Part shown: piece by piece, positions 12,395-56,889 of the stretch
Numbering within the stretch: position 1 is the first letter of the stretch
How the letters are laid out: each line of letters opens with the position of its first letter
NCBI GenBank assembly: GCA_963840885.1
Contig: CAWJAN010000001.1
Span: 115,051-179,050 of the forward strand
Length of the DNA: 64,000 nt
Origin: an uncultured bacterium
GTDB lineage: Bacteria > Patescibacteriota > Minisyncoccia > Phycocordibacterales > GWA1-40-21
Direction of reading: 5' to 3'
Program-made: the position numbers and the translations under genes
Notes under the pieces: model-generated
The model's database searches: none
The model's input: the letters and a program-made list of their open reading frames with translations, nothing else
What the model was told of the DNA's origin: nothing

Positions 12395-12735
12395 TCATGA
12401 ACCTTTATATCTGTAAGCCGAATTCTGTTTGCCGGTTGCCCGGCAAGATAGCCATCTATCTAGGCCAAAAATTGCTTTTTAGCTCGAGCGGCGCTTCCGC
12501 ATAAAGCGGACACGGCCTTGCACAAAGGTAAGGATTTAGCCGTTGCACTTTCACCTTTCGGTGAAATTATTCCCGAAGGAACCCTAGCCTTTCGGCATCG
12601 GCGTCACTGTTCGCACCTCGTGGATTGCTCCAGACGGGCGTTACCCGCTACCCTGCTCCGAGCCTTGCGGCCCGGTTGTGTTCGGACTTTCCTCCCCGGG
12701 AAAATCCCGGAGCAGCTATCCGATACAGAGGCGCT
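12395..12735 (-). ncRNA. rnpB: RNase P RNA (bacterial type)
   Basis: The minus strand contains the universally conserved P4 5' strand GGAGGAAAGTCCG (plus-strand cggactttcctcc at 12682-12694). It also contains the 3' P4 strand ACAGAATTCGGCTTACAG (plus-strand ctgtaagccgaattctgtt at 12411-12429). The region between is GC-rich, stem-rich and ORF-poor. The ends are approximate. Confidence 0.8.
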
Positions 12736-12772
12736 AAAAATTATACAATGATCATTTAATATATGCAAATAT

Positions 12773-12810
12773 AAAACCGCCGCGGCAGAAGCCGCGGCGG
12801 TTTTATATTG
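12773..12810. terminator. bidirectional intrinsic terminator downstream of the pilin-like gene array
   Basis: A perfect 14-bp hairpin aaaaccgccgcggc-agaa-gccgcggcggtttt is present. Confidence 0.8.
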
Positions 12811-12813: not shown

Positions 12814-13056
12814 TTATCTCAAGCCAAGCGTGGAAAGTATGAAGTTTATTATACCTTTTGCGCTAAGCATGATGAATAGGCCGACGATGCCCCAGATCAT
12901 ATGGCTTATGCCTTCCTGCCTTTTGCTTTCATTATCTGCATTCTTTATGAACATGACCACTCCCCACATGAAATACAATATTGCCAAGGCGAATACAAGG
13001 TATTCGGCCGGCGTGAGTATATTGTTGACTATGTTCGTAAAAAGTTTGTCAAACAT
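12814..13056 (-). CDS. small two-TM protein, TrbC/VirB2-pilin-like family, paralog 1 (no signal peptide)
   Basis: 80 aa. TM1 is followed by a charged loop (NADNESKRQEG) and a TM2 carrying the MIWGIVGLFIMLSAKG motif shared with four upstream paralogs. Confidence 0.6.
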   Translation of the reverse strand: MFDKLFTNIVNNILTPAEYLVFALAILYFMWGVVMFIKNADNESKRQEGISHMIWGIVGLFIMLSAKGIINFILSTLGLR

Positions 13057-13081
13057 CTGGTTTGTCTCGTTTGTTTAAAAC

Positions 13082-13426
13082 TTAAGGGAGAGTTGGCAAA
13101 GTTACGGAAGAATTGCCGGTGCCAAACGTATTTACGAGTATTGCTACAAGTCCCCAGACAGAAACCATGACGAAGATTCCCACGATACCCCAGATCATCT
13201 GACCTTTGGCTTTCGACTTCTTTTCATCGCTGTCGGCAATGACAAATACGAAAACTTGCCATATGAAATAAACGACGGCAACCGCAATAAGAACAGGAAG
13301 AATAAGGTTTGCCAGCTGGTGGACATAATTGATGAGTCCGACTACTCCCTGGGTAGGCGTATATTGCGCAAGAGCCACTAAAGGCAAGAAGCTCGATACG
13401 GCCACTGCTGATATCTTTTTTAACAT
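13082..13426 (-). CDS. TrbC/VirB2-pilin-like small secreted membrane protein, paralog 2
   Basis: Signal peptide MLKKISAVAVSSFLPLVALA, then TM1, loop DSDEKKSKAKGQ, and TM2 MIWGIVGIFVMVSVWGLV. The internal ATG at 13424-13426 is the preferred start. Confidence 0.6.
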   Translation of the reverse strand: MLKKISAVAVSSFLPLVALAQYTPTQGVVGLINYVHQLANLILPVLIAVAVVYFIWQVFVFVIADSDEKKSKAKGQMIWGIVGIFVMVSVWGLVAILVNTFGTGNSSVTLPTLP

Positions 13427-13537
13427 AAACTGATTGTTTTTAAATAAACTATTAAATTTTAAAGCGACCAAAATTACGACTTTACATAATTATAAACTGA
13501 CTTATATAAGAGGGCAAGTCTCGTTATCTACACAAAA

Positions 13538-13945
13538 CTAAGGGGTTGGGACATTAACAGGCCTTATCTGTATCTGGGTATCATTGAGCCTGAAAGTATA
13601 TTGGAGAATATTCACGAGCCCCCATACGGAAACCATGACGAAAAGGCCTATGATTCCGTAGATTATGAAATCCTTGGCTTTCTTTTTATTGTCACCTTCG
13701 GCTCTTATGAAAGTGAAAACTCCCCAAAGAAAAGCCAGCACCGCTACAGCCATAAGAACTGGAACAAGAGGATTTATTATGCATCCTATAAACATATTCA
13801 TTACAAGTTCCTTGAAATTTCTCGGGGCCAAGCTGCAGGTAAAACCAGTGAGCGACAAATTGCTCTGGGCATATGAAGAGCCGTAAAACATTCCGAATAC
13901 GAGTGGAGAAACGGATATTGCAAAAATTTTAGCTCTTTTTTTCAT
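13538..13945 (-). CDS. TrbC/VirB2-pilin-like small secreted membrane protein, paralog 3
   Basis: Signal peptide MKKRAKIFAISVSPLVFGMFYGSSYA, then TM1, loop EGDNKKKAKD, and TM2 FIIYGIIGLFVMVSVWGLV. Confidence 0.6.
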   Translation of the reverse strand: MKKRAKIFAISVSPLVFGMFYGSSYAQSNLSLTGFTCSLAPRNFKELVMNMFIGCIINPLVPVLMAVAVLAFLWGVFTFIRAEGDNKKKAKDFIIYGIIGLFVMVSVWGLVNILQYTFRLNDTQIQIRPVNVPTP

Positions 13946-13950
13946 AAAAA

Positions 13951-14292
13951 TTATTGTCCAACTGACTTAATGGTTCCAACAACAAGTGACGCCAGAAGCT
14001 GTGCTCCGAGAAGTATTGCAACGCCTATTACTGTATAAAAGAAGAGTTCTTTTGCTTTCTGAATTTCAGCCGGTTTACCCTGTGCGCGTACGAATACAAA
14101 GCCAGACCAAATAAAGGCAACAATCGCTACAACTACTCCTACTCTTGTAATATAAGTAAGGACTATAGAGACAAGATTTGGAACATTTGTAGTACCTAAA
14201 GGATTTACTATCTGAGCGAAAGAAACAAATGGCATAGCAAGCTGAACAAGAGTTAGACCGCCTATTTTTTTAAACTGTAATATTTTTTTCAT
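13951..14292 (-). CDS. TrbC/VirB2-pilin-like small secreted membrane protein, paralog 4
   Basis: Signal peptide MKKILQFKKIGGLTLVQLAMPFVSFA, then two TM segments separated by the QGKPAEIQKAKE loop. The start is set at the internal ATG at 14290-14292 to avoid overlap with paralog 5. Confidence 0.55.
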   Translation of the reverse strand: MKKILQFKKIGGLTLVQLAMPFVSFAQIVNPLGTTNVPNLVSIVLTYITRVGVVVAIVAFIWSGFVFVRAQGKPAEIQKAKELFFYTVIGVAILLGAQLLASLVVGTIKSVGQ

Positions 14293-14312
14293 ATTTTTAT
14301 TTTTAATAAATT

Positions 14313-14702
14313 TTATTGACCGCCCAAGAATCTGAGCGCCGAGCCGGCATTCGGAACTATCCACTTGATAACCGTATAAACCGCAAGCCAAGAACAAAGG
14401 ACTATAATCATTCCTATAATGGTATTTTTGAACATATTTTTGGCTGCAGTTCTTTCTCCAGGGTTATTAGGATGCAAAAGCATTTTTCCTCCGGCTATTG
14501 CAAATGTAACAGCCGCAACTGAAATTGAAATGCCTAAAAAATATTTTAAGATATTATTTATCAGCTGTATGAAACTGTTGAAATTGCAATCCTGACCATT
14601 ACAAGGAATCACTCCTCCGCTTGATTGCGCGTAAGCCAAAAGCGGCAGAAAAACAAGCGAAGATACGGAGAATGCCAGGATTTTAGAAATATTTCTTTTC
14701 AT
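14313..14702 (-). CDS. TrbC/VirB2-pilin-like small secreted membrane protein, paralog 5 (Cys-containing)
   Basis: Signal peptide MKRNISKILAFSVSSLVFLPLLAYA, a CNGQDC motif, then TM1, loop NPGERTAAKNMFKN, and TM2 TIIGMIIVLCSWLAV. Confidence 0.55.
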   Translation of the reverse strand: MKRNISKILAFSVSSLVFLPLLAYAQSSGGVIPCNGQDCNFNSFIQLINNILKYFLGISISVAAVTFAIAGGKMLLHPNNPGERTAAKNMFKNTIIGMIIVLCSWLAVYTVIKWIVPNAGSALRFLGGQ

Positions 14703-14710: not shown

Positions 14711-16003
14711 TTATAACAAATTATCCAGTTCTCCGCTTGCATTCTGAACGGAACTATCTACATCAAGACGTCCACTCGTTATATTTTGAATCATTTCCTT
14801 GAATATCTGGTCTGTCTTTGTCATATCCGGGTCAAGCCATCCTTCTGATATAAGAGCTGAGTTGAAAAATACGGTTTTTGCTGGATCTTTGGAACCTTGG
14901 GATATAAGATCCCTTCTTGCCGGGGCAAAATCGGAAACATTGGAAAATTCAGCTTCAGCCTGCGCGCTTGTAAGTGTCGAGATCAGCTGGAATGCAGGAA
15001 CTATATTAGGCGAATTCTTGACCAGAGAGAATCCGTAAAGCTCGCCGAATGTCAGCTTGTTTTTTGTACCGACAACCTGAGGAATCATGGAAACGTCAAA
15101 ATTCAAATTCGGATTCTTGTTCTTTATATCGCCGTATTCCGAAGCAAAGCCGAAATAAACCGCCAAGTTTTCGGCAAGGAAAGACTGCTTTGATGAAGGC
15201 AGGGATATATTCCATGAATAAACAGTTTTCTGGGGATTGGCATAATCCGTATAAAAAGTCATTGCCGAAACTGCAGGCACCGATACGTCCGTCAAAGACC
15301 TGGAATAAAGATCGGACTTAAGTGAGCCATTGTCATTTGCAACTATCTGACTTCCCGCCTGAAGTATGAGGTTGCTGACGATGGCTTTTGCATTATCTAT
15401 ATTGCCGTATTCGCCGAGAGCAACCGCGCTCTGCGTTATATTTCCGCTCTGATCAAGCTTTGTGAGCTTATCGGCAAGCGATGGAAATTCAGCCCATGTT
15501 GCCGGAGGCGTAGCGATGGCCGCACTTCCAAATAGATCTTTGTTCCAATACATCACGAGCGGATCGACAGCAAAAGGAAGAGCGAATGTTCCGCTTGCCT
15601 GAAGATAAAGGTCTGATTCAGGAACAAATGTATCCTGTATTGTGCGCACCGGAATGGACGTCATCAGATACACTTTATCCAGGTATCTTTCTTCAAGATC
15701 TTGCGGCACAAGTATGACATCAGGCTCCTTGCCAGTAGCTATGGCTTCAACCAAATCCCCGTCTATGGTATCAATGCTTTTCTGCGTATATTGTAGCCTG
15801 AGCGATGCATTGTAATCCTGATCGTATTGCTGGATAAAACTGTTGAATGTCGTGCTGTCTATAGTTCCCCAAATAGTTACTTCGACATTGGAATTTGTCG
15901 TGCTTGAGGATTTGTAAGTGGCAAAAACTACAAGCCCGACCACTATCAGAAGCCCGAATACGGCCAGCAATATCAATTTGAATTTATTATCTTCTTTTGG
16001 CAT
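14711..16003 (-). CDS. membrane-anchored extracellular solute-binding-protein-like (SBP family 1-like) protein
   Basis: N-terminal TM anchor followed by a domain of about 400 aa with SBP-like segments (VILVPQDL, YWNKDLFG, and a bilobed alpha/beta pattern). No permease or ATPase partner is adjacent. Confidence 0.5.
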   Translation of the reverse strand: MPKEDNKFKLILLAVFGLLIVVGLVVFATYKSSSTTNSNVEVTIWGTIDSTTFNSFIQQYDQDYNASLRLQYTQKSIDTIDGDLVEAIATGKEPDVILVPQDLEERYLDKVYLMTSIPVRTIQDTFVPESDLYLQASGTFALPFAVDPLVMYWNKDLFGSAAIATPPATWAEFPSLADKLTKLDQSGNITQSAVALGEYGNIDNAKAIVSNLILQAGSQIVANDNGSLKSDLYSRSLTDVSVPAVSAMTFYTDYANPQKTVYSWNISLPSSKQSFLAENLAVYFGFASEYGDIKNKNPNLNFDVSMIPQVVGTKNKLTFGELYGFSLVKNSPNIVPAFQLISTLTSAQAEAEFSNVSDFAPARRDLISQGSKDPAKTVFFNSALISEGWLDPDMTKTDQIFKEMIQNITSGRLDVDSSVQNASGELDNLL

Positions 16004-16024: not shown

Positions 16025-16552
16025 TTATTTTTTTCTGAATACCAATCCATAATGATGGGTGCCGGCATTTATGTCCCGCTCGTATTCGAAGCCGTGCTTT
16101 TCAAAAAGTTCCTTGGCTTTTTGTCCGCTGAAAACAGCTTGTGGCTCTGGTCCCATTCCTCCGAAAGATTCCGACCAGTCTATAACAAGAACCCTTCCGC
16201 CGCGCTTCAATATCCTCTTTATTTCCATGGCTGCATAGTCTTTCTGCTCAAGCTGAAAAAATATATTCGAGGCAATTATGGCATCGAGATATCCTTCCCT
16301 TAATTTTGTTCCGCCAAGATTATCCAAGTCGGTCCATATATTTTCAATATTCAGCAGATGCATTTCTTGGATATGCTTTTTAAGCTTATCAAGCAAGTCT
16401 TTCTGGACATCTATAGCATAAACCTTGCCTGATTCCCCTACGGCTTTGGACAATGCAAGAGCATAGCTGCCTGAACCTGTTCCGAAATCGGCAACCAGGC
16501 TTCCTTTCCCTATATTGAATTGTTCGATATTTTTTTCTGGATCGGAAAACAT
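16025..16552 (-). CDS. class I SAM-dependent methyltransferase
   Basis: Motif I VADFGTGSGSYAL is present, followed by acidic motif II (AIDV) and motif III (LKRGGRVLVID). Confidence 0.75.
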   Translation of the reverse strand: MFSDPEKNIEQFNIGKGSLVADFGTGSGSYALALSKAVGESGKVYAIDVQKDLLDKLKKHIQEMHLLNIENIWTDLDNLGGTKLREGYLDAIIASNIFFQLEQKDYAAMEIKRILKRGGRVLVIDWSESFGGMGPEPQAVFSGQKAKELFEKHGFEYERDINAGTHHYGLVFRKK

Positions 16553-16607
16553 ACGATTATCGAATAATTATAGCTTTATTGGCAAAAGAAGTCCATGAAT
16601 CGGCTAT

Positions 16608-16636
16608 TATAAAACCGCATAATACGCGGTTTTATA
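16608..16636. terminator. bidirectional intrinsic terminator
   Basis: Hairpin aaaaccgc-ataatac-gcggtttt. Confidence 0.7.
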
Positions 16637-16639
16637 AAG

Positions 16640-31117: not shown

Positions 31118-34100
31118 TTATTGGCTGGAGCTTGTAGCTTCTGTACTCGTGCTGTCTGTAGTGCCGGTTGTCGTCGCCTGTTCCGTTTGAACCGGTTCGG
31201 TAACATCCACTTCTCTCGTTGCTTTTGCATTATTACCTGCAGCATCTGTTGCGGAATACGTTATCGCATATGTTCCCGCTGTGCTCGTATCTACAGTTCC
31301 GGAAGTTGTAACGGAAACGTTTCCGTCGACATCATCTGTCGCTGTCGCGCCGGCATCCGCATATGTGTCGCCCACGGTAAGGTTTACAGGATTTGAACCG
31401 TTCAGTGTTATGACCGGAGCCGTGGTGTCGGCTGGCGCTGGCGGAGTGGTTGTAGCTTCCGTATCGGTAGTCGTCGATGTCGTATCTGTTGTTGAGGCTG
31501 TATCGTCAGCCGAAGTCGTATCCGTGCTCGTTGAAGTGGTGTCGGTGCTTGTCGATGTTGTATCGGTCGAAGTTGATGTCGTGGATGATGAAGTTTCCGA
31601 GGTATCGGACGACTGATCGCTTCCCTGTCCCATTGCCGGAGACGGCGATGAAGGAATTATGGACATAAAATCTTTTGCGCCTTTCACAGCAAATGCCGTC
31701 CAGCTGAACTCGATATCTTCGGGCGCAGGATTATTTATCATTATCGTGAATCCATTCGTTGATTTATCGGCCACCAAATATTTGATCTCATTGTTGAATA
31801 TTGCGACAGAAACGGCGGCAGCATCAACTGAGCTGTCAAGAGAAATCGTGGCGTTCACTACAGGATCGACAAGATACGGCTTGTCGAATGTCACATCCAC
31901 GCTGGTAGCGCCTTTATATATGGTGGCAAATCCTGCTGTATCGGAATTGAAGTAAGGAGTGCCGAAGAAAATGGTATCCGAATTGAACGAAATTGCGTCA
32001 CTCAAAGAATTTACATGGTCTATCGTCAAGCCGTTTGCCGTTATCTGCGGCGTTATTATTTCCACTCCGGCGGCAAGCCTGCCGGTGAACAGTTCCGAGG
32101 AATTTTCTGCCGTTGATGTTCCGTTGAGAAGCTTGTCCAAAACTTGTTTTGCAAAATCGTCAGGATATATTCCATTGTCTATGTTTATTCCGGCAAATTC
32201 GCTTATGCTCTGTCCATTGTAATATCCTTGTTCAACATAAACCATTACCGTTGTCGATGTCGACGACGGAGACCATGAGCCGAGGGCTTTACCTATTACG
32301 AATCCCGCTCCGGTCGCTTTCATCGCTTTTCCAGGATCGTTTGAAGTCGTAAGATAATCTCCGGGATTTATTTCTTCCGAACTAGAGGAAATTTTTACAG
32401 GAACGCGTCCGTTAAGGGCTATCGGCATAGGATTGTCTTCCTTCTTTATATTATATCCGGCTGATGTGAAATTGCCGTGGTTGTCGGAAACTATTCCTAC
32501 AGTATTTTTCTGGTAAGGGCTGTTTGATTTTACGAGCTCTGTGATCTGGCCGAGAACATTATTGTAGTCTACAGACGTATCGGTTGCTGTGCCGTATGTG
32601 TTTACCAATTGCGAGCCGGTAACGACTATGTCGCCGTATTCGGTTCCTGTGGCGACCGGATAATTTTCAGCGTAGTCGGCGGATGGCGCTGAACTGCAAT
32701 CTCCGAGCGTATATATGCTGCCGGCCGAAGGAGATGTTCCTGTGGCCAATGTCGAACATACCGCCGTTGAAACGGTTGTAGTTGCAAGGCCGATGCTTAC
32801 TATTCCATTGCTGTTTACTGTAAATAATGACGTGTCGTTTTTCTTAAGATCTATGAAGTTTCCTGTAAACGATCCTCCGCCTTTTCCGAAATTCATCGTA
32901 AGCCCTTCTCCGGAGAATGCGGAGGTTTCCTGATAAAAGCTTGCCACTGACGTAGCTGTCGTCATGGTATTGGTGTAAAGCCTCAAGACATCTCCTTGCG
33001 TAGTTCCGTCATTTTCTGCATACAGCGCAGCAGGTAAAAGAACTCCTCCAGCATTTCCGGCAGTGATTGCCTGCAAGCCGAATGTCGCGCCGGTGGTTCT
33101 GATGCCGGTATTCACGCCGGAAGTGTTTGAACCTGCGTTCGAGACTATTTCCATTCCGCGCGTAGTATTTGCAAGAGTGGTGTTATCAACCATTCTCATG
33201 ATTTCTCCTACGACCGTATTTGCATTCGTGGTCGGCTGAACATTTACAACGAAACGGTTACCGACTTGAACGCCTCCGGCAGTAGGATTTACATTATAAT
33301 TTCCATTGATACCGGCGATGGCATTTGTAGCGCCGTCAGCCGAAACCGAACCGTCTATCAAAAGTTTCGCCAGAGAAAAAGATGTCGTTGTACCTATCAT
33401 CGCCTGGCCGCTTTGCGATATTGTGAAAAGATTTGCGCCTGTAGATGAGGAAACTGCGAACGGATTAATACCTGATGCTCCTTGTACCAAGAAACTTGAT
33501 GTTGAAGTCGTGGCGTTCACGCCAGCAACTGTTCCGTTATCGAAAAGGACGCCGGAACTTAGAGTTGAAGTGGATGTCCAGCGCGCCACCTTTCCATTAG
33601 TGCCTCCTGAAAGAATTGGTGAGGTTGTTGAAATAACATTTCCGCTTCCATCAACTGCAAGGAATGAGCCGACAAGTCCGTTGCCGAGTTTAAGATTTGA
33701 GATTGTTGTTGTTGCAAGTGTCGTCGTTCCGTTAATGGTAACTGAACCTGTGAATGTTGCTCCTGTAAGAGCTGCGAAGGTCGATGAAGCGTAAGTATAT
33801 GTCGGATAATTCGCGATTGTCGCATACGTTGATGTTCCATATGCGTATGTGGAGAATGTTGAAGATGCGTATGTGTATGTCGGATAATTCGTAAGGGTGC
33901 TAACGGTATTTGTTATGTATCCAGACGGATTAGATGCGAAATAATATGTGGAAGAAGCATAGCCAAATGATGGGAAGGTCGAGGATGCATACGTATATGT
34001 AGGAGTGTTTGCAAGAAGCGCATATGTGGAAGTTCCATAAGCATAAGTGACAAATGTTGATGATGCGTAAGTGAATGATGGGAAAGTTGAGGATGCGTAT

Positions 34101-37100
34101 GTATTCGTAACATATCCGGACAAAAGATTTGCAGTCGAAGTTGCAATGACATTTCCCAAAGAATCAGCCGCGAGAAGAGTTGAAGCTATTCCGTTTCCTA
34201 GAGAAAGCTGGCTGATGCTTGTTGTAGCGAGATTAGAACTTCCTAAAACGCTTAATATGGATGAAAGATTAGCTGATCCTGAAATGGTTGTTGTGGAAAA
34301 AGTAGAAGTGCCGGAAACAGTAAGCTGATTTGAACCAAGATTTACATTGGAGCTTGCTCCCGTATAGGGAACATAATTGGCAAGCGCAGCAGAAGTTGCA
34401 TATGTTGATGAGCCGTAAGCATATGTCACGAAAGTTGATGAAGCGTAAGTGAATGTCGGATATGTGGCTGTGGCGTTTGCGATTGTCAGGTATGTGGAAG
34501 CGGCGGAAGTGGTGGAAAGGTATCCTCCGAGTGTTGTTGCCAATGTTCCCGTGGAGACGTAATTGATGGCAGCCTGAAGCTGGGAAAGATATGTCGAAGA
34601 TCCGTAAGTGAATGTCGGATATGTGGCTGTGGCGTTTGCGATTGTCAGGTATGTGGAAGCGGCGGAAGTGGTGGAAAGATACGGTGCGAGAGCGGAAGCC
34701 GTGATGAATCCTGAAGTAGAGTTGTCAGCGGTGGAAAGGTCTTGTCCGGAGATGTTTGAGATGTATCCAGACGGATTCGAAGCAAGGTAGAAGTCGGATG
34801 ATGAAGCGCTTGGAATATACGGAAGCGATGTCGAAGCGGAAAGAGGAAGGTATGTTGCTGCTGCAGATGTTGTTGAAAGGTATCCTCCGAGTGTTGTTGC
34901 CAATGTTCCCGTGGAGACGTAATCGATGGCAGCCTGAAGCTGGGAAAGATATGTCGAAGATCCGTAAGTGAATGTCGGATATGTGGCTGTGGCGTTTGCG
35001 ATTGTCAGGTATGTGGAAGCGGCGGAAGTGGTGGAAAGATACGGTGCGAGAGCGGAAGCCGTGATGAATCCTGAAGTAGAGTTGTCAGCGGTGGAAAGGT
35101 CTTGTCCGGAGATGTTTGAGATGTATCCAGACGGATTCGAAGCAAGGTAGAAGTCGGATGATGAAGCGCTTGGAATATACGGAAGCGATGTCGAAGCGGA
35201 AAGAGGAAGGTATGTTGCTGCTGCAGATGTTGTTGAAAGGTATCCTCCGAGTGTTGTTGCCAATGTTCCCGTGGAGACGTAATCGATGGCAGCCTGAAGC
35301 TGGGAAAGATATGTCGAAGATCCGTAAGTGAATGTCGGATATGTGGCTGTGGCGTTTGCGATTGTCAGGTATGTGGAAGCTGCGGAAGTGGTGGAAAGAT
35401 ACGGTGCGAGAGCGGAAGCCGTGATGAATCCTGAAGTAGAGTTGTCAGCGGTGGAAAGGTCTTGTCCGGAGATGTTTGAGATGTATCCAGACGGATTCGA
35501 AGCAAGGTAGAAGTCGGATGATGAAGCGCTTGGAATATACGGAAGCGATGTCGAAGCGGAAAGAGGAAGGTATGTTGCTGCTGCAGATGTTGTTGAAAGG
35601 TATCCTCCGAGTGTTGTTGCCAATGTTCCCGTGGAGACGTAATCGATGGCAGCCTGAAGCTGGGAAAGATATGTCGAAGATCCGTAAGTGAATGTCGGAT
35701 ATGTGGCTGTGGCGTTTGCGATTGTCAGGTATGTGGAAGCTGCGGAAGTGGTGGAAAGATACGGTGCGAGAGCGGAAGCCGTGATGAATCCTGAAGTAGA
35801 GTTGTCAGCGGTGGAAAGGTCTTGTCCGGAGATGTTTGAGATGTATCCAGACGGATTCGAAGCAAGGTAGAAGTCGGATGATGAAGCGCTTGGAATATAC
35901 GGAAGCGATGTCGAAGCGGAAAGAGGAAGGTATGTTGCTGCTGCAGATGTTGTTGAAAGGTATCCTCCGAGTGTTGTTGCCAATGTTCCCGTGGAGACGT
36001 AATTGATGGCAGCCTGAAGCTGGGAAAGATATGTCGAAGATCCGTAAGTGAATGTCGGATATGTGGCTGTGGCGTTTGCGATTGTCAGGTATGTTGCTGC
36101 TGCAGATGTTGTTGAAAGGTATCCTCCGAGAGAAGAGATGGTTGCGAATGTCGTCGAAGCGTAAGTGAATGTCGGATATGTGGCTGTGGCGTTTGCGATT
36201 GTCAGGTATGTGGAAGCGGCGGAAGTGGTGGAAAGGTATCCTCCGAGAGAAGAGATGGTTGCGAATGTCGTCGAAGCGTAAGTGAATGTCGGATATGTGG
36301 CTGTGGCGTTTGCGATTGTCAGGTATGTGGAAGCGGCGGAAGTGGTGGAAAGTTTTGCATCAAGTGCGGCTTGCAAATCGGTTTGATCAGAAAGTAAACC
36401 GGTGATGGCTCCCCATGCGACGGTTGCTGACCCGCTTGAAGCAAAAGCCCAGGCATATCCGTTTGGTGCAGTGCTTGATGCCTGAAGAAATTGTCCGGCT
36501 GTTCCCGTTGCGATAGATGTAAGTCCTGAAGAAGAATTGAATATTGCGATTTGTCCTGCTGTTCCCGTCCCCGTTATCGGATTCGTAAGCGTAGTCTGAT
36601 ATGTCGAAGATCCGTAATCATATGTGACAAAAGTTGATGATGCGTATGTATATGGAACATATGTCGAAGCTGCCGTTGCCGAAGTAAGATACGGTGCGAG
36701 AGCTGATGAATCAATGTATCCAGACGGATTCGAAGCAAGGTAGAAGTCGGATGATGAAGCGCTTGGAATATACGGAAGCGATGTCGAAGCGGAAAGAGGA
36801 AGGTATGTTGCTGCTGCAGATGTTGTTGAAAGGTATCCTCCGAGAGAAGAGATGGTTGCGAATGTCGTCGAAGCGTAAGTGAATGTCGGATATGTGGCTG
36901 TGGCGTTTGCGATTGTCAGGTATGTGGAAGCTGCGGAAGTGGTGGAAAGATACGGTGCGAGAGCGGAAGCCGTGATGAATCCTGAAGTAGAGTTGTCAGC
37001 GGTGGAAAGGTCTTGTCCGGAGATGTTTGAGATGTATCCAGACGGATTCGAAGCAAGGTAGAAGTCGGATGATGAAGCGCTTGGAATATACGGAAGCGAT

Positions 37101-40100
37101 GTCGAAGCGGAAAGAGGAAGGTATGTTGCTGCTGCAGATGTTGTTGAAAGGTATCCTCCGAGTGTTGTTGCCAATGTTCCCGTGGAGACGTAATCGATGG
37201 CAGCCTGAAGCTGGGAAAGATATGTCGAAGATCCGTAAGTGAATGTCGGATATGTGGCTGTGGCGTTTGCGATTGTCAGGTATGTGGAAGCTGCAGATGT
37301 TGTTGAAAGGTATCCTCCGAGAGAAGAGATGGTTGCGAATGTCGTCGAAGCGTAAGTGAATGTCGGATATGTGGCTGTGGCGTTTGCGATTGTCAGGTAT
37401 GTGGAAGCGGCGGAAGTGGTGGAAAGATACGGTGCGAGAGCGGAAGCCGTGATGAATCCTGAAGTAGAGTTGTCAGCGGTGGAAAGGTCTTGTCCGGAGA
37501 TGTTTGAGATGTATCCAGACGGATTCGAAGCAAGGTAGAAGTCGGATGATGAAGCGCTTGGAATATACGGAAGCGATGTCGAAGCGGAAAGAGGAAGGTA
37601 TGTTGCTGCTGCAGATGTTGTTGAAAGGTATCCTCCGAGTGTTGTTGCCAATGTTCCCGTGGAGACGTAATCGATGGCAGCCTGAAGCTGGGAAAGATAT
37701 GTCGAAGATCCGTAAGTGAATGTCGGATATGTGGCTGTGGCGTTTGCGATTGTCAGGTATGTTGCTGCTGCAGATGTTGTTGAAAGGTATCCTCCGAGAG
37801 AAGAGATGGTTGCGAATGTCGTCGAAGCGTAAGTGAATGTCGGATATGTGGCTGTGGCGTTTGCGATTGTCAGGTATGTGGAAGCGGCGGAAGTGGTGGA
37901 AAGTTTTGCATCAAGTGCGGCTTGCAAATCGGTTTGATCAGAAAGTAAACCGGTGATGGCTCCCCATGCGACGGTTGCTGACCCGCTTGAAGCAAAAGCC
38001 CAGGCATATCCGTTTGGTGCAGTGCTTGATGCCTGAAGAAATTGTCCGGCTGTTCCCGTTGCGATAGATGTAAGTCCTGAAGAAGAATTGAATATTGCGA
38101 TTTGTCCTGCTGTTCCCGTCCCCGTTATCGGATTCGTAAGCGTAGTCTGATATGTCGAAGATCCGTAATCATATGTGACAAAAGTTGATGATGCGTATGT
38201 ATATGGAACATATGTCGAAGCTGCCGTTGCTGAAGTAAGATACGGTGCGAGCGCTGATGAATCAATGTATCCAGACGGATTCGAAGCAAGGTAGAAGTCG
38301 GATGATGAAGCGCTTGGAATATACGGAAGCGATGTCGAAGCGGAAAGAGGAAGGTATGTTGCTGCTGCAGATGTTGTTGAAAGGTATCCTCCGAGTGTTG
38401 TTGCCAATGTTCCCGTGGAGACGTAATCGATGGCAGCCTGAAGCTGGGAAAGATATGTCGAAGATCCGTAAGTGAATGTCGGATATGTGGCTGTGGCGTT
38501 TGCGATTGTCAGGTATGTGGAAGCTGCAGATGTGGTTGAAAGGTATCCTCCGAGAGAAGAGATGGTTGCGAATGTCGTCGAAGCGTAAGTGAATGTCGGA
38601 TATGTGGCTGTGGCGTTTGCGATTGTCAGGTATGTGGAAGCTGCGGAAGTGGTGGAAAGATACGGTGCGAGAGCGGAAGCCGTGATGAATCCTGAAGTAG
38701 AGTTGTCAGCGGTGGAAAGGTCTTGTCCGGAGATGTTTGAGATGTATCCAGACGGATTCGAAGCAAGGTAGAAGTCGGATGATGAAGCGCTTGGAATATA
38801 CGGAAGCGATGTCGAAGCGGAAAGAGGAAGGTATGTTGCTGCTGCAGATGTTGTTGAAAGGTATCCTCCGAGTGTTGTTGCCAATGTTCCCGTGGAGACG
38901 TAATCGATGGCAGCCTGAAGCTGGGAAAGATATGTCGAAGATCCGTAAGTGAATGTCGGATATGTGGCTGTGGCGTTTGCGATTGTCAGGTATGTTGCTG
39001 CTGCAGATGTTGTTGAAAGGTATCCTCCGAGTGTTGTTGCCAATGTTCCCGTGGAGACGTAATCGATGGCAGCCTGAAGCTGGGAAAGATATGTCGAAGA
39101 TCCGTAAGTGAATGTCGGATATGTGGCTGTGGCGTTTGCGATTGTCAGGTATGTGGAAGCTGCGGAAGTGGTGGAAAGTTTTGCATCAAGTGCGGCTTGC
39201 AAATCGGTTTGATTGGAAAGCGTACCAGTGATTGCACCCCACACTCCGTTTCCTCCACTACTGCTTGCAAGCACCCAATCATATCCAGTAGGAGAAGTTG
39301 AAGATGCTCTCAAAAACATTCCGTCTGTGGAAGTGCCTATGCTCGACAATGTTCCAGTTGCTGTCCAGTAAGAAAGTTGTCCTGCGACTCCGCTGCCGGA
39401 AATTTTATTATTAAAATTTGTCCAATCTGATGATGAAAGATATCCGTCATTTGTCGATGAGGCAATACCAAGCTTTGTTCTTATTGATGAAGAAGATTCA
39501 TCTCCGGTATTTATTCCTGTTGAAGTTCCTGTAAAATTTGAAGCGGAAATATTTCCGGAAAAGTTTGCGTCCGCGGCGCTTAAAAGTCCATTGCTGTCTA
39601 TGGAAAAAATATTTGTTCCTGTCGAATCTTGAATTTGAAAAATATTTGCAACCTGTCCCAGAAAAGCCCTGACGGTAAGCGCGGTGGAATCCGTGGATGT
39701 AGAAAGTATACTCACCACGGAATTATCTATTGGGGTTGTAGTTCCGAAAGATGATTGCCCTGCTCCGCTTACGGCTCCAGCCACCTGAGAAAATGCTGCG
39801 GAAGTTATTTTTTGTCTTGGGCTAAGAGTTTGGAATGTAACATTGTCGGAAGAAACTTCAATCTGCAGATATATGGAATTATTCGTATTGAAATTGTAAT
39901 CCAAAATATCAGGGTAGCCGGCTACAGTATCTCCGATATTTACATTAAAAACTCCCTGGCGGACTTGCGAAGAAAAAGATGTTGGCGCCGATGCTGGCCA
40001 GAGTTTTGTGCCAGAACCGACGGTAGAATTATCCCAAATTGAAAATTTAAAATAATAATTTGTTCCGGTTCCTCCCAAAAGATTTCCGCTTGAATCCGCA

Positions 40101-40231
40101 AGCCTGCCTTGATAAGAAAGGATGGTAGGAACTCCATTTTGTGCAAAAACAAAATTTTCGCTTAATAACGGAGAAAAAGCGAAACAGAGGACAAACAATA
40201 AAATTAGTGATTTTTTATAGGTTTTTACCAT
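31118..40231 (-). CDS. giant repeat-rich secreted protein (about 3038 aa from the signal-peptide ATG) with fiber-like Tyr/Ser/Thr repeats and a C-terminal Ig-like (DUF5011-type) domain
   Basis: One uninterrupted 9.1-kb ORF. The signal peptide MVKTYKKSLILLFVLCFAFSPLLS starts at the ATG at 40229-40231. The central region of about 4.8 kb consists of near-identical tandem repeats with unit LSTTSAA(S/A)TYLTIANATATYPTFTY(G/A)SSTYLSQLQAAIDYVSTGTLATTLGGY. The C-terminus has a TSTSTDTT S/T linker. It ends in a segment PVITLNGSNPVNLTVGDTYADAGATATDDVDGNVSV...GTYAITYSATDAAGN, typical of bacterial Ig-like surface domains. Confidence 0.75.
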   Translation of the reverse strand: MVKTYKKSLILLFVLCFAFSPLLSENFVFAQNGVPTILSYQGRLADSSGNLLGGTGTNYYFKFSIWDNSTVGSGTKLWPASAPTSFSSQVRQGVFNVNIGDTVAGYPDILDYNFNTNNSIYLQIEVSSDNVTFQTLSPRQKITSAAFSQVAGAVSGAGQSSFGTTTPIDNSVVSILSTSTDSTALTVRAFLGQVANIFQIQDSTGTNIFSIDSNGLLSAADANFSGNISASNFTGTSTGINTGDESSSSIRTKLGIASSTNDGYLSSSDWTNFNNKISGSGVAGQLSYWTATGTLSSIGTSTDGMFLRASSTSPTGYDWVLASSSGGNGVWGAITGTLSNQTDLQAALDAKLSTTSAASTYLTIANATATYPTFTYGSSTYLSQLQAAIDYVSTGTLATTLGGYLSTTSAAATYLTIANATATYPTFTYGSSTYLSQLQAAIDYVSTGTLATTLGGYLSTTSAAATYLPLSASTSLPYIPSASSSDFYLASNPSGYISNISGQDLSTADNSTSGFITASALAPYLSTTSAASTYLTIANATATYPTFTYASTTFATISSLGGYLSTTSAASTYLTIANATATYPTFTYGSSTYLSQLQAAIDYVSTGTLATTLGGYLSTTSAAATYLPLSASTSLPYIPSASSSDFYLASNPSGYIDSSALAPYLTSATAASTYVPYTYASSTFVTYDYGSSTYQTTLTNPITGTGTAGQIAIFNSSSGLTSIATGTAGQFLQASSTAPNGYAWAFASSGSATVAWGAITGLLSDQTDLQAALDAKLSTTSAASTYLTIANATATYPTFTYASTTFATISSLGGYLSTTSAAATYLTIANATATYPTFTYGSSTYLSQLQAAIDYVSTGTLATTLGGYLSTTSAAATYLPLSASTSLPYIPSASSSDFYLASNPSGYISNISGQDLSTADNSTSGFITASALAPYLSTTSAASTYLTIANATATYPTFTYASTTFATISSLGGYLSTTSAASTYLTIANATATYPTFTYGSSTYLSQLQAAIDYVSTGTLATTLGGYLSTTSAAATYLPLSASTSLPYIPSASSSDFYLASNPSGYISNISGQDLSTADNSTSGFITASALAPYLSTTSAASTYLTIANATATYPTFTYASTTFATISSLGGYLSTTSAAATYLPLSASTSLPYIPSASSSDFYLASNPSGYIDSSALAPYLTSATAASTYVPYTYASSTFVTYDYGSSTYQTTLTNPITGTGTAGQIAIFNSSSGLTSIATGTAGQFLQASSTAPNGYAWAFASSGSATVAWGAITGLLSDQTDLQAALDAKLSTTSAASTYLTIANATATYPTFTYASTTFATISSLGGYLSTTSAASTYLTIANATATYPTFTYASTTFATISSLGGYLSTTSAAATYLTIANATATYPTFTYGSSTYLSQLQAAINYVSTGTLATTLGGYLSTTSAAATYLPLSASTSLPYIPSASSSDFYLASNPSGYISNISGQDLSTADNSTSGFITASALAPYLSTTSAASTYLTIANATATYPTFTYGSSTYLSQLQAAIDYVSTGTLATTLGGYLSTTSAAATYLPLSASTSLPYIPSASSSDFYLASNPSGYISNISGQDLSTADNSTSGFITASALAPYLSTTSAASTYLTIANATATYPTFTYGSSTYLSQLQAAIDYVSTGTLATTLGGYLSTTSAAATYLPLSASTSLPYIPSASSSDFYLASNPSGYISNISGQDLSTADNSTSGFITASALAPYLSTTSAASTYLTIANATATYPTFTYGSSTYLSQLQAAIDYVSTGTLATTLGGYLSTTSAAATYLPLSASTSLPYIPSASSSDFYLASNPSGYISNISGQDLSTADNSTSGFITASALAPYLSTTSAASTYLTIANATATYPTFTYGSSTYLSQLQAAINYVSTGTLATTLGGYLSTTSAASTYLTIANATATYPTFTYASSTFVTYAYGSSTYATSAALANYVPYTGASSNVNLGSNQLTVSGTSTFSTTTISGSANLSSILSVLGSSNLATTSISQLSLGNGIASTLLAADSLGNVIATSTANLLSGYVTNTYASSTFPSFTYASSTFVTYAYGTSTYALLANTPTYTYASSTFPSFGYASSTYYFASNPSGYITNTVSTLTNYPTYTYASSTFSTYAYGTSTYATIANYPTYTYASSTFAALTGATFTGSVTINGTTTLATTTISNLKLGNGLVGSFLAVDGSGNVISTTSPILSGGTNGKVARWTSTSTLSSGVLFDNGTVAGVNATTSTSSFLVQGASGINPFAVSSSTGANLFTISQSGQAMIGTTTSFSLAKLLIDGSVSADGATNAIAGINGNYNVNPTAGGVQVGNRFVVNVQPTTNANTVVGEIMRMVDNTTLANTTRGMEIVSNAGSNTSGVNTGIRTTGATFGLQAITAGNAGGVLLPAALYAENDGTTQGDVLRLYTNTMTTATSVASFYQETSAFSGEGLTMNFGKGGGSFTGNFIDLKKNDTSLFTVNSNGIVSIGLATTTVSTAVCSTLATGTSPSAGSIYTLGDCSSAPSADYAENYPVATGTEYGDIVVTGSQLVNTYGTATDTSVDYNNVLGQITELVKSNSPYQKNTVGIVSDNHGNFTSAGYNIKKEDNPMPIALNGRVPVKISSSSEEINPGDYLTTSNDPGKAMKATGAGFVIGKALGSWSPSSTSTTVMVYVEQGYYNGQSISEFAGINIDNGIYPDDFAKQVLDKLLNGTSTAENSSELFTGRLAAGVEIITPQITANGLTIDHVNSLSDAISFNSDTIFFGTPYFNSDTAGFATIYKGATSVDVTFDKPYLVDPVVNATISLDSSVDAAAVSVAIFNNEIKYLVADKSTNGFTIMINNPAPEDIEFSWTAFAVKGAKDFMSIIPSSPSPAMGQGSDQSSDTSETSSSTTSTSTDTTSTSTDTTSTSTDTTSADDTASTTDTTSTTTDTEATTTPPAPADTTAPVITLNGSNPVNLTVGDTYADAGATATDDVDGNVSVTTSGTVDTSTAGTYAITYSATDAAGNNAKATREVDVTEPVQTEQATTTGTTDSTSTEATSSSQ
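34400..39250. repeat. nested near-perfect tandem repeat array inside the giant gene (117-nt subunit, 360-nt unit, about 1.5-kb higher-order unit)
   Basis: Antisense ORFs at 34608, 34968, 35328 and 35688 are exactly 360 nt apart, and their translated proteins are identical. The 360-nt unit recurs at 34561, 34921, 35281, 35641 and 36001. A 117-nt subunit dominates 36060-36360. Blocks starting at about 36351 and 37902 are identical over several hundred bp (offset 1551 nt). A third divergent copy starts near 39177. Confidence 0.9.
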
Positions 40232-40363
40232 ACAAATAATGCCTGTACACTCAAATAAATGCCTTATTTGATCAACTGGCATTATTATAACACTGTATGC
40301 ATAGAATATACAAATATATGTTGATAAAAATACGTTTAAAAATATGGATATTTTATTCCATTG

Positions 40364-46037: not shown

Positions 46038-46670
46038 ATGCAGAACGCAAAAAATTTTATAAAGGAAGTTGTTGGCATAGCTATTTTATCTTTCATAATA
46101 GTTCTTCCCATAAGAGTATTTATCGCTCAGCCATTTGTCGTATCCGGAGAATCGATGAGCCAGACTTTCCAAGACGGCAATTATCTTATAGTAAATGAGT
46201 TAGGCTATGATTTCCATAAGCCTGCCCGCGGAGACGTAATAGTGTTCAAAGTTCCTCCTGCCGGCCTTGCGCTTCAGAATGTCGATATAACAAAAACCGT
46301 TTACTATATAAAAAGAGTTATAGGTCTTCCTGGAGAAACCGTTGAAATAGACGGTGATGAAGTAAAGATTTACAATTCTGCAAATCCTGGCGGATTTGTG
46401 CTGGACGAACCTTACATATATATAGACAAAAGCGTAACATCCGCATTCTCGCAAATACATGAAAAGACTACTCTCGGACCGAACGAATATTTCGTCATGG
46501 GCGACAACAGGCATAACAGCTCTGATTCCAGATTATGGGGAATATTGCCTGGAGATAACATAAAAGGACAGGTTTTAGCCCGTCTATTCCCATTGAATGA
46601 AATTTCTATCTCGCCTGGAGAATTCAGCTTCGGTTCATCAACGCCGATTTCAACTTCAACATCAAAATAA
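46038..46670 (+). CDS. lepB: signal peptidase I
   Basis: N-terminal TM; catalytic Ser box GESMSQTF; and YIKRVIGLPGE...GDNRHNSSDSRLWG boxes. Confidence 0.9.
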   Translation: MQNAKNFIKEVVGIAILSFIIVLPIRVFIAQPFVVSGESMSQTFQDGNYLIVNELGYDFHKPARGDVIVFKVPPAGLALQNVDITKTVYYIKRVIGLPGETVEIDGDEVKIYNSANPGGFVLDEPYIYIDKSVTSAFSQIHEKTTLGPNEYFVMGDNRHNSSDSRLWGILPGDNIKGQVLARLFPLNEISISPGEFSFGSSTPISTSTSK

Positions 46671-55289: not shown

Positions 55290-55365
55290 AGTGTTAAGTG
55301 AACCGAAAAACATTAGCATTTTTTTGCCTTTTTTACAAAAAGTTGTTATATTATCTCGGCTGTTT

Positions 55366-56871: not shown

Positions 56872-56889
56872 TGCTGTTGAGCGGATTTT

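What the first reader, a model, noticed from the sequence alone, without database searches (positions are those of the whole stretch)
12814..14702. Tandem array of five paralogous VirB2/TrbC-pilin-like small proteins without visible secretion machinery
Five adjacent genes encode proteins of 80-130 aa with the same architecture. Each has a signal peptide (four of five), a hydrophobic helix, a short Lys-rich loop, and a second helix carrying a conserved aromatic-Gly motif ((I/M)IWGIVG(L/I)FVMVSVWGLV). This is the topology of conjugative T4SS pilins. No VirB4, VirB6 or relaxase is in the window, and the array sits next to the surface-protein genes. Sequence divergence between the copies suggests diversification, for example antigenic or phase variation, or several pilus subunits.
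Basis: partly seen in the sequence, partly recalled or inferred. Interest (0 to 1): 0.7.

Follow-up and report, generated by a model that had tools for sequence, protein, structure and literature searches.

The report
Five-gene VirB2-like pilin operon
Five neighbouring genes encode small two-helix membrane "pilin" proteins of the type IV secretion family; ultra-small Patescibacteria (CPR) bacteria are already known to carry such genes in tandem arrays, so the feature is real but of a described kind, here with a fixed gene order and a conserved partner gene.

Summary
Window 12814-14702 (minus strand) carries five tandem genes (80, 114, 135, 113 and 129 aa). All five score above Pfam's cutoff for PF18895 T4SS_pilin, and one also passes PF04956 TrbC/VirB2. 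Four have A-x-A|Q signal peptides. All have two hydrophobic helices around a short Lys-rich loop. The window is the chromosomal core of a Patescibacteria genome (Paceibacteria-like relatives) and holds no VirB4, VirB6, VirD4 or relaxase.

This kind of array is published. Quinonero-Coronel et al. 2025 counted 441 VirB2 arrays of 2-11 genes in Patescibacteria, and Wang et al. 2023 showed one to be essential.

New here:
- The paralogues are positional orthologues across about 60 related loci, in the order P5-P4-(P3)-P2-P1. There is no recombination substrate. This argues against antigenic or phase variation and for distinct subunits.
- A membrane-anchored SBP_bac_1 protein directly precedes the array in nearly every relative, usually with a methyltransferase upstream of it.
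- A conserved promoter and leader precede the P2-P1 pair.
- The adjacent surface-protein genes are a 24-kb insertion absent from all relatives examined.

Pilus formation and the location of the secretion machinery remain inferred. Verdict: new member of a known kind, of moderate interest.

The parts
16607..16637 (.). Hairpin terminator that closes the upstream surface-protein gene and marks the 5' boundary of the operon
   Evidence: 12-bp stem followed by a T run, inverted repeat I5.
16556..16595 (-). Two overlapping sigma-70-like promoter matches upstream of the methyltransferase gene (TGGACT-17-TATAAT and TTGCCA-18-GATAAT)
   Evidence: These are consensus matches only; function is inferred.
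16025..16552 (-). SAM-dependent methyltransferase (175 aa), the first gene of the conserved MTase-SBP-pilin block
   Evidence: Pfam Methyltransf_25/11/31. An orthologue lies upstream of the SBP gene in most related loci.
14711..16003 (-). Membrane-anchored solute-binding-protein homologue (430 aa, SBP_bac_1) whose stop codon lies 8 nt before the P5 start
   Evidence: Pfam SBP_bac_1, 75.7 bits. Weak MalE-like NCBIfam match. It directly precedes the pilin array in 28 of 29 pilin-side loci with upstream sequence. Every full-length orthologue with downstream sequence is followed by pilin genes.
14313..14702 (-). Pilin P5 (129 aa): signal peptide, Cys-x4-Cys N-terminal segment and 2-TM hairpin. This class is always first in the array.
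   Evidence: PF18895 44.3 bits and PF04956 26.1 bits. First position is P5-like in 26 of 28 complete arrays.
13951..14292 (-). Pilin P4 (113 aa): signal peptide and 2-TM hairpin. This class is always second.
   Evidence: PF18895 34.3 bits; PF04956 TrbC/VirB2 29.3 bits, above the 27.9 cutoff. Second position is P4-like in 27 of 28 arrays.
13538..13945 (-). Pilin P3 (135 aa): the middle position, a closer paralogue of P2 (51% identity)
   Evidence: PF18895 34.0 bits. The middle position is variable in relatives: duplicated, or fused into a di-pilin.
13489..13517 (-). Internal sigma-70-like promoter TTGCCC-17-TATAAT in the only long intergenic gap of the array
   Evidence: A gap of about 75-150 nt falls before the P2-type gene in nearly all related arrays, and many carry TTGCTT-17-TATAAT there.
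13464..13469 (-). Conserved GGTCGC leader motif 18-35 nt downstream of the -10 hexamer
   Evidence: Present in about 22 of 36 leaders. Function unknown.
13082..13426 (-). Pilin P2 (114 aa): signal peptide with A-x-A|Q site and 2-TM hairpin carrying MIWGIVGIFVMVSVWGLV. This class is always penultimate.
   Evidence: PF18895 46.9 bits. AlphaFold2 helical hairpin. Penultimate position is P2-like in 27 of 28 arrays. 101 homologues, nearly all annotated PF18895.
12814..13056 (-). Pilin P1 (80 aa): no classical signal peptide. This class is always last.
   Evidence: PF18895 53.6 bits, the best of the five. Last position is P1-like in 27 of 28 arrays. The orthologues inspected also lack a K/R-plus-hydrophobic leader.
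12768..12809 (.). Perfect 19-bp GC-rich hairpin that acts as a bidirectional intrinsic terminator ending the operon
   Evidence: inverted repeat I1.

Best explanation
The five genes are the pilin set of the chromosomal, Patescibacteria-type type IV secretion system (T4SS).

Shown:
- They are five members of the T4SS_pilin (VirB2/TrbC-like) family.
- They are arranged as one tightly packed unit: methyltransferase, membrane-anchored SBP homologue, P5, P4, P3, an internal promoter with a conserved leader, P2, P1, then a terminator.
- The paralogue classes and their order are conserved across related Paceibacteria-like genomes.

Inferred:
- P2-P5 are exported by Sec and cut by signal peptidase I after A-x-A, leaving an N-terminal Gln.
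- All five sit in the membrane as helical hairpins with the Lys-rich loop in the cytoplasm.
- A VirB4/VirB3/VirB6/TrsD machine encoded elsewhere in the genome then extracts them and assembles them into one heteromeric pilus-like filament or conduit that contacts the host cell. In Paceibacteria this machine usually lies near dnaA (PMC12102498).
- P2 and P1, which have their own promoter and are the best conserved, are the candidate bulk subunits. P5 and P4 are candidate minor, initiating or tip subunits.
- The co-transcribed SBP homologue is a candidate accessory, either a ligand or host-surface receptor or an assembly factor.
For: Family membership:
- All five exceed the PF18895 gathering score, and P4 also exceeds that of PF04956.
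- NCBIfam gives sub-threshold matches to the mycoplasma ICE pilin-like protein NF045849.
- Nearly all of the 101 P2 homologues carry PF18895, and NCBI names some of them 'pilin'.
- A profile of the family finds 34,674 cluster representatives.

Topology:
- Signal peptides with A(-3) in 48/61, A(-1) in 59/61 and Q(+1) in 54/61 sequences of the P2 class.
- Two hydrophobic helices and a Lys-rich loop.
- AlphaFold2 hairpin.

Distinct subunits rather than interchangeable variants:
- In 28 complete arrays the first gene is P5-like in 26, the second P4-like in 27, the penultimate P2-like in 27 and the last P1-like in 27.
- The same core order appears in the loci retrieved through the SBP.
- 12 of 35 loci fuse two pilin domains into one ORF at the middle position.

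Operon structure:
- Gaps of 5-25 nt between genes, except one gap of 111 nt that holds TTGCCC-17-TATAAT.
- That gap and a GGTCGC leader motif are conserved.
- Terminators flank the unit.

Literature:
- VirB4 is present in 2,417 of 3,035 Patescibacteria assemblies.
- VirB2-like genes are away from virB4 in about 40% of assemblies that have both.
- 441 arrays of 2-11 pilins were counted, with mean identity 25% and maximum 54% (PMC12102498).
- The pilin series is essential in Ca. Southlakia epibionticum (PMC10633639).
Against: - No VirB4, VirB3, VirB6, VirD4, TrsD or relaxase lies in the 64-kb window or within 10 kb of the array in any related locus examined. Linkage to a T4SS rests only on family homology and on the literature.
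- The source genome outside the window could not be read.
- No filament made of PF18895 proteins has been visualised, to my knowledge.
- Fold searches cannot tell a helical hairpin from thousands of others. A sequence profile finds no solved pilin.
- The existence of di-, tri- and up to 17-fold fused 'poly-pilins' is awkward for a classical one-subunit-at-a-time pilus model unless they are processed.
- The roles assigned to P1-P5 and to the SBP are inference from position, promoter and conservation only.
Confidence: 0.65

Rival explanations
1. Interchangeable variants. The paralogues are alternative versions of one major pilin, kept for antigenic variation, phase variation or adaptation to different host strains. 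This was proposed for Bartonella and Anaplasma VirB2 arrays and suggested for Patescibacteria in PMC12102498.
For: Pairwise identity is low, at 21-51%. The predicted external N- and C-terminal segments are the most variable parts. Orthologues evolve fast: 33-62% identity where GyrA is 81-86%. Copy number of the P2/P3-type gene varies between lineages.
Against: Four paralogue classes keep their identity and order across about 60 loci from different species, so the divergence is ancient and fixed, not ongoing shuffling. The longest inter-copy DNA repeat is 50 nt at 76% identity. There are no invertible-promoter repeats or homopolymer switches. The genes are packed into one transcription unit with a single internal promoter, so they are probably co-expressed. 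P1 differs in kind because it lacks a signal peptide. Natural di-pilin fusions imply that two classes are used together.
Confidence: 0.15
2. Not a pilus. The five hairpin proteins stay in the cytoplasmic membrane and form a hetero-oligomeric membrane complex with the co-transcribed anchored SBP homologue, such as a channel, scaffold or uptake device. This complex would work independently of a VirB4 machine.
For: The SBP orthologue and the array are linked tightly: 8 nt apart in the window, in 28 of 29 pilin-side loci, and at every SBP orthologue with downstream sequence. The link holds even where the GyrA or MTase neighbours differ. No T4SS gene lies within 10 kb in any locus. Fused proteins with 2 to 17 hairpin repeats look more like polytopic membrane proteins than like polymerising subunits.
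Against: The proteins show significant homology to TrbC/VirB2 pilins. In Saccharibacteria the homologous pilin series lies inside the T4SS cluster and is essential together with it (PMC10633639). In 1,135 of 1,948 assemblies a VirB2-like gene is near virB4 (PMC12102498). One related array (L024) lacks the SBP. No SBP-dependent ABC permease is nearby.
Confidence: 0.15
3. Remnant of an integrated conjugative element. The array is a leftover mating-pair-formation fragment from an ICE or plasmid that has lost its other genes.
For: Weak matches to a mycoplasma ICE pilin-like family (NF045849, below cutoff). The family name derives from conjugative systems.
Against: The array sits in a housekeeping block (GyrA, MurJ, RNase P RNA, MiaA, ParB, TopA) with conserved synteny across species. 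No integrase, relaxase or T4CP was found, and the array's GC content matches its flanks. The genes are intact and conserved as orthologues, which a decaying remnant would not be.
Confidence: 0.02

Closest known systems
VirB2-like pilin arrays of Patescibacteria (Quinonero-Coronel et al. 2025, PMC12102498; the essential pilin series in the T4SS cluster SEML1_0006-0019 of Ca. Southlakia epibionticum, Wang et al. 2023, PMC10633639; review PMC12857230)
   Same: Same Pfam family (PF18895/PF04956). Tandem array within the reported range of 2-11 genes. Intra-array identity of 21-51% fits the reported mean of 25% and maximum of 54%. Chromosomal location, no relaxase, monoderm CPR host.
   Different: Here the array is not in a T4SS cluster. 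It sits in a GyrA-MTase-SBP-pilin block in a Paceibacteria-like lineage, whereas arrays were reported as most abundant in Microgenomatia and Saccharimonadia. In the passages of those papers that I read, I did not find three features described: the fixed P5-P4-(P3)-P2-P1 order, the SBP partner, and the internal promoter with its leader.
TrbC/VirB2 conjugative pilins of Gram-negative T4SS (PF04956; for example A. tumefaciens VirB2, RP4 TrbC, F TraA)
   Same: Small size, a cleavable signal peptide, two hydrophobic helices and a short basic loop. P4 passes the PF04956 cutoff. The A|Q cleavage site resembles the Ala|Gln site I recall for VirB2 (from memory, not tested).
   Different: The host is a monoderm. 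No adjacent virB3-virB11 genes. Five divergent copies rather than one. P2 and P3 do not reach PF04956 at all. No solved pilin is found by sequence profile. Cyclisation and acetylation status are unknown.
Mbov_0395-family pilin-like conjugal transfer protein of mycoplasma ICEs (NCBIfam NF045849)
   Same: An 80-aa two-helix pilin-like protein in a wall-less or monoderm lineage. All five proteins align over the whole model.
   Different: All scores (17.7-37.2 bits) are below the 40-bit cutoff. There is no ICE context here.
Tandem VirB2 paralogues of Bartonella and Anaplasma T4SS (as cited in PMC12102498)
   Same: Several divergent virB2 copies in tandem.
   Different: Those copies are interpreted as antigenic or host-range variants in intracellular pathogens of animals. 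Here positional orthology and the absence of recombination substrates point to fixed, distinct subunits.

Membership tests
Pfam PF18895 T4SS_pilin | Whole-protein score at or above the curated gathering cutoff (26.6 bits) | tested here: met
   P1 53.6, P2 46.9, P3 34.0, P4 34.3 and P5 44.3 bits.
Pfam PF04956 TrbC/VirB2 pilin | Whole-protein score at or above the curated gathering cutoff (27.9 bits) | tested here: inconclusive
   P4 scores 29.3 bits (met). P5 at 26.1 and P1 at 18.9 are below the cutoff. P2 and P3 give no hit.
VirB2/TrbC-type T4SS pilin (functional class) | Cleavable N-terminal signal peptide, then two hydrophobic helices joined by a short basic loop (helical hairpin) | tested here: met
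   Hydropathy scan and inspection. A-x-A|Q conservation. AlphaFold2 helices 24-63 and 67-101 in P2. P1 lacks the signal peptide. SignalP and TMHMM were not available.
VirB2/TrbC-type T4SS pilin (functional class) | Encoded with, or in the same genome as, a VirB4 ATPase and VirB6/VirB3 channel components | not testable with these tools
   None in the 64-kb window or within 10 kb in the related loci. The rest of the 247.9-kb source contig and the genome could not be fetched. According to PMC12102498, 2,417 of 3,035 Patescibacteria assemblies have VirB4.
VirB2/TrbC-type T4SS pilin (functional class) | Polymerises into an extracellular filament | not testable with these tools
Patescibacteria VirB2 array (as defined in PMC12102498) | 2-11 pilin genes in tandem, or separated by one non-pilin gene, with low intra-array identity (mean 25%, maximum 54%), in a Patescibacteria genome | tested here: met
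   Five tandem genes at 21-51% identity. The nearest relatives are Ca. Paceibacterota, Nomurabacteria and Taylorbacteria MAGs.
NCBIfam NF045849 Mbov_0395 pilin-like conjugal transfer protein | Score at or above 40 bits | tested here: not met
   Best score is 37.2 bits (P1); the others score 17.7-32.1 bits.
Anti-phage defence systems (PADLOC) | Any model hit by the pilins or the SBP | tested here: not met
   No hits for P1-P5 or the SBP. The methyltransferase gives only a generic mad2 match.

The most novel reading that the evidence does not exclude
The SBP homologue plus four ancient pilin classes (P5, P4, P2/P3, P1) form a fixed-composition module, distinct from classical one-pilin T4SS pili. 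This would be a heteromeric VirB2-type conduit whose co-transcribed, membrane-anchored solute-binding protein acts as the substrate or host-surface receptor, so the T4SS-derived apparatus of Paceibacteria would import host-derived nutrients rather than export DNA or effectors. The natural di-pilin fusions, and the tri- to 17-fold poly-pilin fusions seen elsewhere, would reflect subunits that are neighbours in this assembly.
Probability: 0.1. Interest if true: 0.75.

Novelty: new member of a known kind. Interest (0 to 1): 0.33.

Why it matters
The role of the Patescibacteria T4SS and its unusual pilins is an acknowledged open question. [quoted passage not shown]

This locus adds no new kind of element. 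It does give testable constraints:
- The paralogues are fixed, ordered classes and not shuffling variants.
- Two of them (P2 and P1) have their own conserved promoter and leader.
- A dedicated orphan solute-binding protein travels with them.

These points suggest concrete experiments: the stoichiometry of the five proteins, the ligand of the SBP, and regulation through the leader. They bear on how ultra-small epibionts connect to and feed on their hosts.

Tried and rejected
- Exact-protein look-ups to recover the source contig failed for P3 and for the SBP.
A single-protein query (P2) was used instead.
- A sequence profile against PDB chains gave only chance matches with E >= 0.25.
- PADLOC gave no defence-system link.
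- Rfam at gathering thresholds found no known RNA family in the array or its leader. It found only RNase P RNA and tRNAs elsewhere in the window.
- A search for recombination or inversion substrates within the array found nothing beyond the terminator hairpins and short, weak coding-sequence similarity.
- ICE-remnant and defence-island readings were considered and rejected because of the housekeeping synteny.
- The large unknown ORFs near related arrays turned out to be ClpB, IF-2, PEP synthase, Band_7 and similar, not VirB4.
Full report
**1. What is there**

Window 12814-14702 holds five tandem ORFs on the minus strand:

| Gene | Coordinates | Length |
|---|---|---|
| P5 | 14313-14702 | 129 aa |
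| P4 | 13951-14292 | 113 aa |
| P3 | 13538-13945 | 135 aa |
| P2 | 13082-13426 | 114 aa |
| P1 | 12814-13056 | 80 aa |

These exact products, with these start codons, are already in the public protein collection on one 247.9-kb contig. The gaps between genes are 5-25 nt, except for 111 nt between P3 and P2. A perfect 19-bp GC-rich hairpin followed by a T run (12768-12809) comes directly after P1.

**2. Family**

All five proteins exceed the curated cutoff of Pfam PF18895 'Type IV secretion system pilin', scoring 34.0-53.6 bits against a 26.6-bit cutoff. P4 also exceeds the cutoff of PF04956 TrbC/VirB2 (29.3 against 27.9), and P5 is just under it. NCBIfam gives only sub-threshold matches, to the mycoplasma ICE pilin-like family NF045849.

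P2 has 101 homologues, nearly all annotated PF18895. NCBI names some of them 'pilin [Candidatus Paceibacterota bacterium]'. A profile of the P2 class finds 34,674 cluster representatives at E <= 0.001 among 1.84 billion. A recent preprint notes PF18895 as the dominant domain of freshwater-specific protein clusters (10.1101/2025.04.23.650224).

**3. Anatomy of the proteins**

- P2-P5 begin with a K/R-rich segment, a hydrophobic stretch and a small-x-small site followed by Gln: ALA|Q, SYA|Q, SFA|Q and AYA|Q.
- In the P2-class alignment, A(-3) occurs in 48/61 sequences, A(-1) in 59/61 and Q(+1) in 54/61.
- P1, and the P1-type orthologues inspected, lack such a leader.
- Every mature part has two hydrophobic stretches of about 25-35 residues separated by a short acidic and Lys-rich loop.
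- AlphaFold2 models P2 as a signal helix plus a helical hairpin, with helices 24-63 and 67-101 and mean pLDDT 77.
Only one Gly of it is invariant.
- Pairwise identity is 21-51%.
- Fold and PDB-sequence searches are uninformative for this simple fold.

**4. Genomic setting**

The window is a housekeeping stretch of a Patescibacteria (CPR) chromosome. It encodes DprA, TopA, RelA/SpoT, ParB, MiaA, MurJ, RNase P RNA, GyrA, S1, Pth, LepB, HisS, FtsA, FtsZ, TrxB, TsaD and five tRNAs. No ORF hits VirB4, VirB6, VirB3, VirD4, VirB11 or a relaxase, and an HMM of the five pilins finds no sixth copy.

The nearest relatives of P2 among species-representative genomes are MAGs labelled Ca. Paceibacterota, Paceibacteria, Nomurabacteria or Taylorbacteria. 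The best identity is 59%, so the source genome itself is not in that set.

**5. Comparative result 1: fixed paralogue classes in a fixed order**

All 35 related genome loci carry a tandem pilin array, mostly of 4-7 genes; a few arrays are cut by contig ends. Each ORF was assigned to its best-matching window paralogue. The 28 arrays that are complete give these counts:

| Position | Best-matching class | Arrays |
|---|---|---|
| First | P5 | 26 of 28 |
| Second | P4 | 27 of 28 |
| Penultimate | P2 | 27 of 28 |
| Last | P1 | 27 of 28 |
| Middle | P2- or P3-like | variable |

Loci retrieved independently through the SBP gene show the same core: P5-P4, a gap, then a P2/P3-type gene followed by P1, sometimes with an extra P2/P3-type copy. 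The closest relative, L040 (GyrA 93% identical), has the identical five-gene order and a 110-nt gap before P2.

Orthologue identity to the nearest relatives is 33-62%, where GyrA is 81-86% and the SBP is 57-61%. P1 and P2 are the best conserved. In 12 of the 35 loci the middle position is one ORF with two complete pilin domains.

Within the window array, the longest inter-copy DNA similarity is 50 nt at 76%. There are no inversion-type repeats.

Taken together, the divergence is ancient and each class is maintained. This argues against antigenic or phase variation and for distinct, jointly used subunits.

**6. Comparative result 2: a conserved partner**

A 430-aa protein with an N-terminal membrane anchor and an SBP_bac_1 domain lies directly upstream on the same strand. 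Its stop codon is 8 nt before the P5 start. A 175-aa SAM-dependent methyltransferase gene precedes it.

- On the pilin side, 28 of the 29 loci with upstream sequence show SBP then pilins, usually as GyrA-MTase-SBP-pilins.
- On the SBP side, every full-length orthologue (32-68% identity; loci L040-L078) with enough downstream sequence is followed at once by pilin genes. Generic SBPs at 23-31% identity never are.
- The SBP-pilin pair persists in three altered contexts: where the upstream neighbour differs (L036, with Formyl_trans_N upstream), where the methyltransferase is missing (L043, L031), and where 4.4 kb separates the methyltransferase from the SBP (L069).
- One array (L024) lacks the SBP.

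No SBP-dependent ABC permease is nearby. Any function for the SBP in this module is inference.

**7. Comparative result 3: internal promoter and leader**

The only long gap in the array holds TTGCCC-17-TATAAT (13517-13489). A gap of about 75-150 nt falls at the same place, before the P2-type gene, in nearly all arrays. Many of these gaps carry TTGCTT-17-TATAAT, followed 18-35 nt later by GGTCGC flanked by ATTATTAG-like repeats.

The pattern ATTATTAG-N(0-14)-GGTCG occurs essentially only there in the loci that have it. I infer that P2 and P1 are additionally, and probably more strongly, transcribed, which fits bulk subunits. The leader motif is a candidate operator or 5'-UTR element of unknown function.

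**8. The neighbouring surface-protein genes**

In all relatives examined, GyrA is followed directly, or after a small ORF or one inserted gene, by the methyltransferase gene. In the window, 23.9 kb lie between them (16640-40282). This block encodes Ig-like, cohesin/dockerin-like and giant proteins of 2,394, 998 and 3,054 aa. Its GC content is 0.44-0.51, against about 0.41 in the flanks.

**9. Comparison with published work**

- Quinonero-Coronel et al. 2025 (PMC12102498) searched 3,035 Patescibacteria genomes with PF04956 and PF18895. They found VirB4 in 2,417 assemblies and VirB2-like pilins in 1,948 VirB4-containing assemblies, near virB4 in 1,135 of them. They counted 441 arrays of 2-11 pilin genes, with mean identity 25% and maximum 54%, and suggested that the variability might aid adaptation to different host strains.
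- Wang et al. 2023 (PMC10633639) showed that a series of predicted pilins inside the T4SS cluster of Ca. Southlakia epibionticum is essential.
- A 2025 review (PMC12857230) speculates about a pilus acting as a conduit for uptake from the host.
- A 2024 perspective calls the role of this T4SS in Saccharibacteria 'completely unknown' (PMC11665869).

The finding is thus a new member of a described kind. I did not find three things in the passages I read: the positional orthology of the classes, the dedicated SBP partner, and the conserved internal promoter and leader. I cannot exclude that they are described elsewhere.

**10. Mechanism**

Most likely (confidence about 0.65), these are the pilin subunits of the chromosomal Patescibacteria T4SS. 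On this model they are exported by Sec and cut by signal peptidase I; a LepB gene is in the window at 46038-46670. They are stored in the membrane as hairpins and assembled by a VirB4 machine encoded elsewhere into one heteromeric filament or conduit at the host interface.

- Shown: family membership, topology, operon layout, and the orthology of the classes.
- Inferred: processing, dependence on VirB4, filament formation, the roles of the individual classes, and the role of the SBP.

Rivals are interchangeable variants (0.15), a VirB4-independent membrane complex with the SBP (0.15) and an ICE remnant (0.02).

**11. Verdict**

Novelty is low, as a new member of a known kind, and interest is about 0.33. 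That score rests on the comparative constraints, which make an open question about CPR biology more testable.

Noticed in passing
window 13427-13537 (minus strand); also the gap before the P2-type gene in L002, L004-L006, L008, L012, L014-L018, L020-L023, L026-L028, L033: A conserved non-coding leader. It has a TTGCTT-17-TATAAT promoter, then GGTCGC 18-35 nt downstream, flanked by ATTATTAG-like repeats. Some leaders add small GC hairpins (CAGCC..GGCTG, CCGCC..GGCGG). No Rfam family matched at gathering thresholds. It may be an operator or a 5'-UTR element for the P2-P1 pair.
   Followed up: partly
L013, L018, L022, L024, L030, L032 (gap before the P2-type gene); window about 13520-13537: A TTATCCACAG sequence, a perfect DnaA-box-like 9-mer, lies just upstream of the -35 region in several related leaders. 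The window has the near-match TGTGTAGATAA (reverse complement TTATCTACACA) overlapping the P3 stop codon. Significance unknown.
   Followed up: no
window 16640-40282: A 23.9-kb block of surface-protein genes is inserted between GyrA and the methyltransferase gene. It is absent from all relatives examined, including L040 (GyrA 93% identical). It encodes Big_13 Ig-like, a weak cohesin match, dockerin, Gly_rich_2, DUF2341 and Bact_surface_Ig-like domains, in proteins of 2,394, 998 and 3,054 aa. GC is 0.44-0.51 against about 0.41 in the flanks. No integrase was seen.
   Followed up: partly
window 34515-39154 (inside the 3,054-aa gene at 31118-40282): Near-perfect (95-100% matches) tandem DNA repeats with periods of 360, 117, 477 and 159 nt, together with a very strong GC skew (+0.24 to +0.40). 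These are recently expanded repeats in a giant surface protein and may vary in length between strains.
   Followed up: no
L010:9123-9899, L014:8841-9893, L015:9215-9892, L017:2981-3706, L020:9965-10771, L021:9145-9828, L023:9096-9845, L025:5671-6534, L026:9164-9799, L027:9092-9811, L028:7992-8708, L034:8780-9376: In 12 of 35 related arrays the middle position is a single ORF with two complete T4SS_pilin domains (four TM helices), a natural di-pilin fusion.
   Followed up: partly
P0126 (L120:6001-11328), P0169, P0106, P0133 and others: 'Poly-pilin' proteins with 3, 5-8, 11 and up to 17 tandem TrbC/T4SS_pilin hairpin repeats in one ORF. P0126 is 1,775 aa and translates as a single ORF under code 11. 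Its contig also encodes ribosomal protein L39e, which suggests an archaeon. Such fusions sit awkwardly with a classical single-subunit pilus model.
   Followed up: partly
window 12398-12731 (minus strand), promoter match at 12740-12769: Bacterial class A RNase P RNA (116.8 bits) lies immediately downstream of the pilin operon terminator, with its own TTTGCA-18-TATAAT promoter match.
   Followed up: no
window 55200-60600: After a tRNA-Ser/tRNA-Glu pair comes a low-GC stretch (down to 0.32 at 58-60 kb). Its ORFs hit only DUF4145 and DUF4238, or nothing (384-aa and 113-aa ORFs). It may be a small variable or mobile island.
   Followed up: no
window P2-P5 N-termini; alignment A3: The predicted signal-peptidase site is almost invariably A-x-A|Q, with Gln at +1 in 54 of 61 P2-class sequences. 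As I recall it (from memory), A. tumefaciens VirB2 is also cut before a Gln and then cyclised. An N-terminal Gln could alternatively form pyroglutamate. The adjacent conserved methyltransferase might modify the pilins; this is speculation.
   Followed up: no
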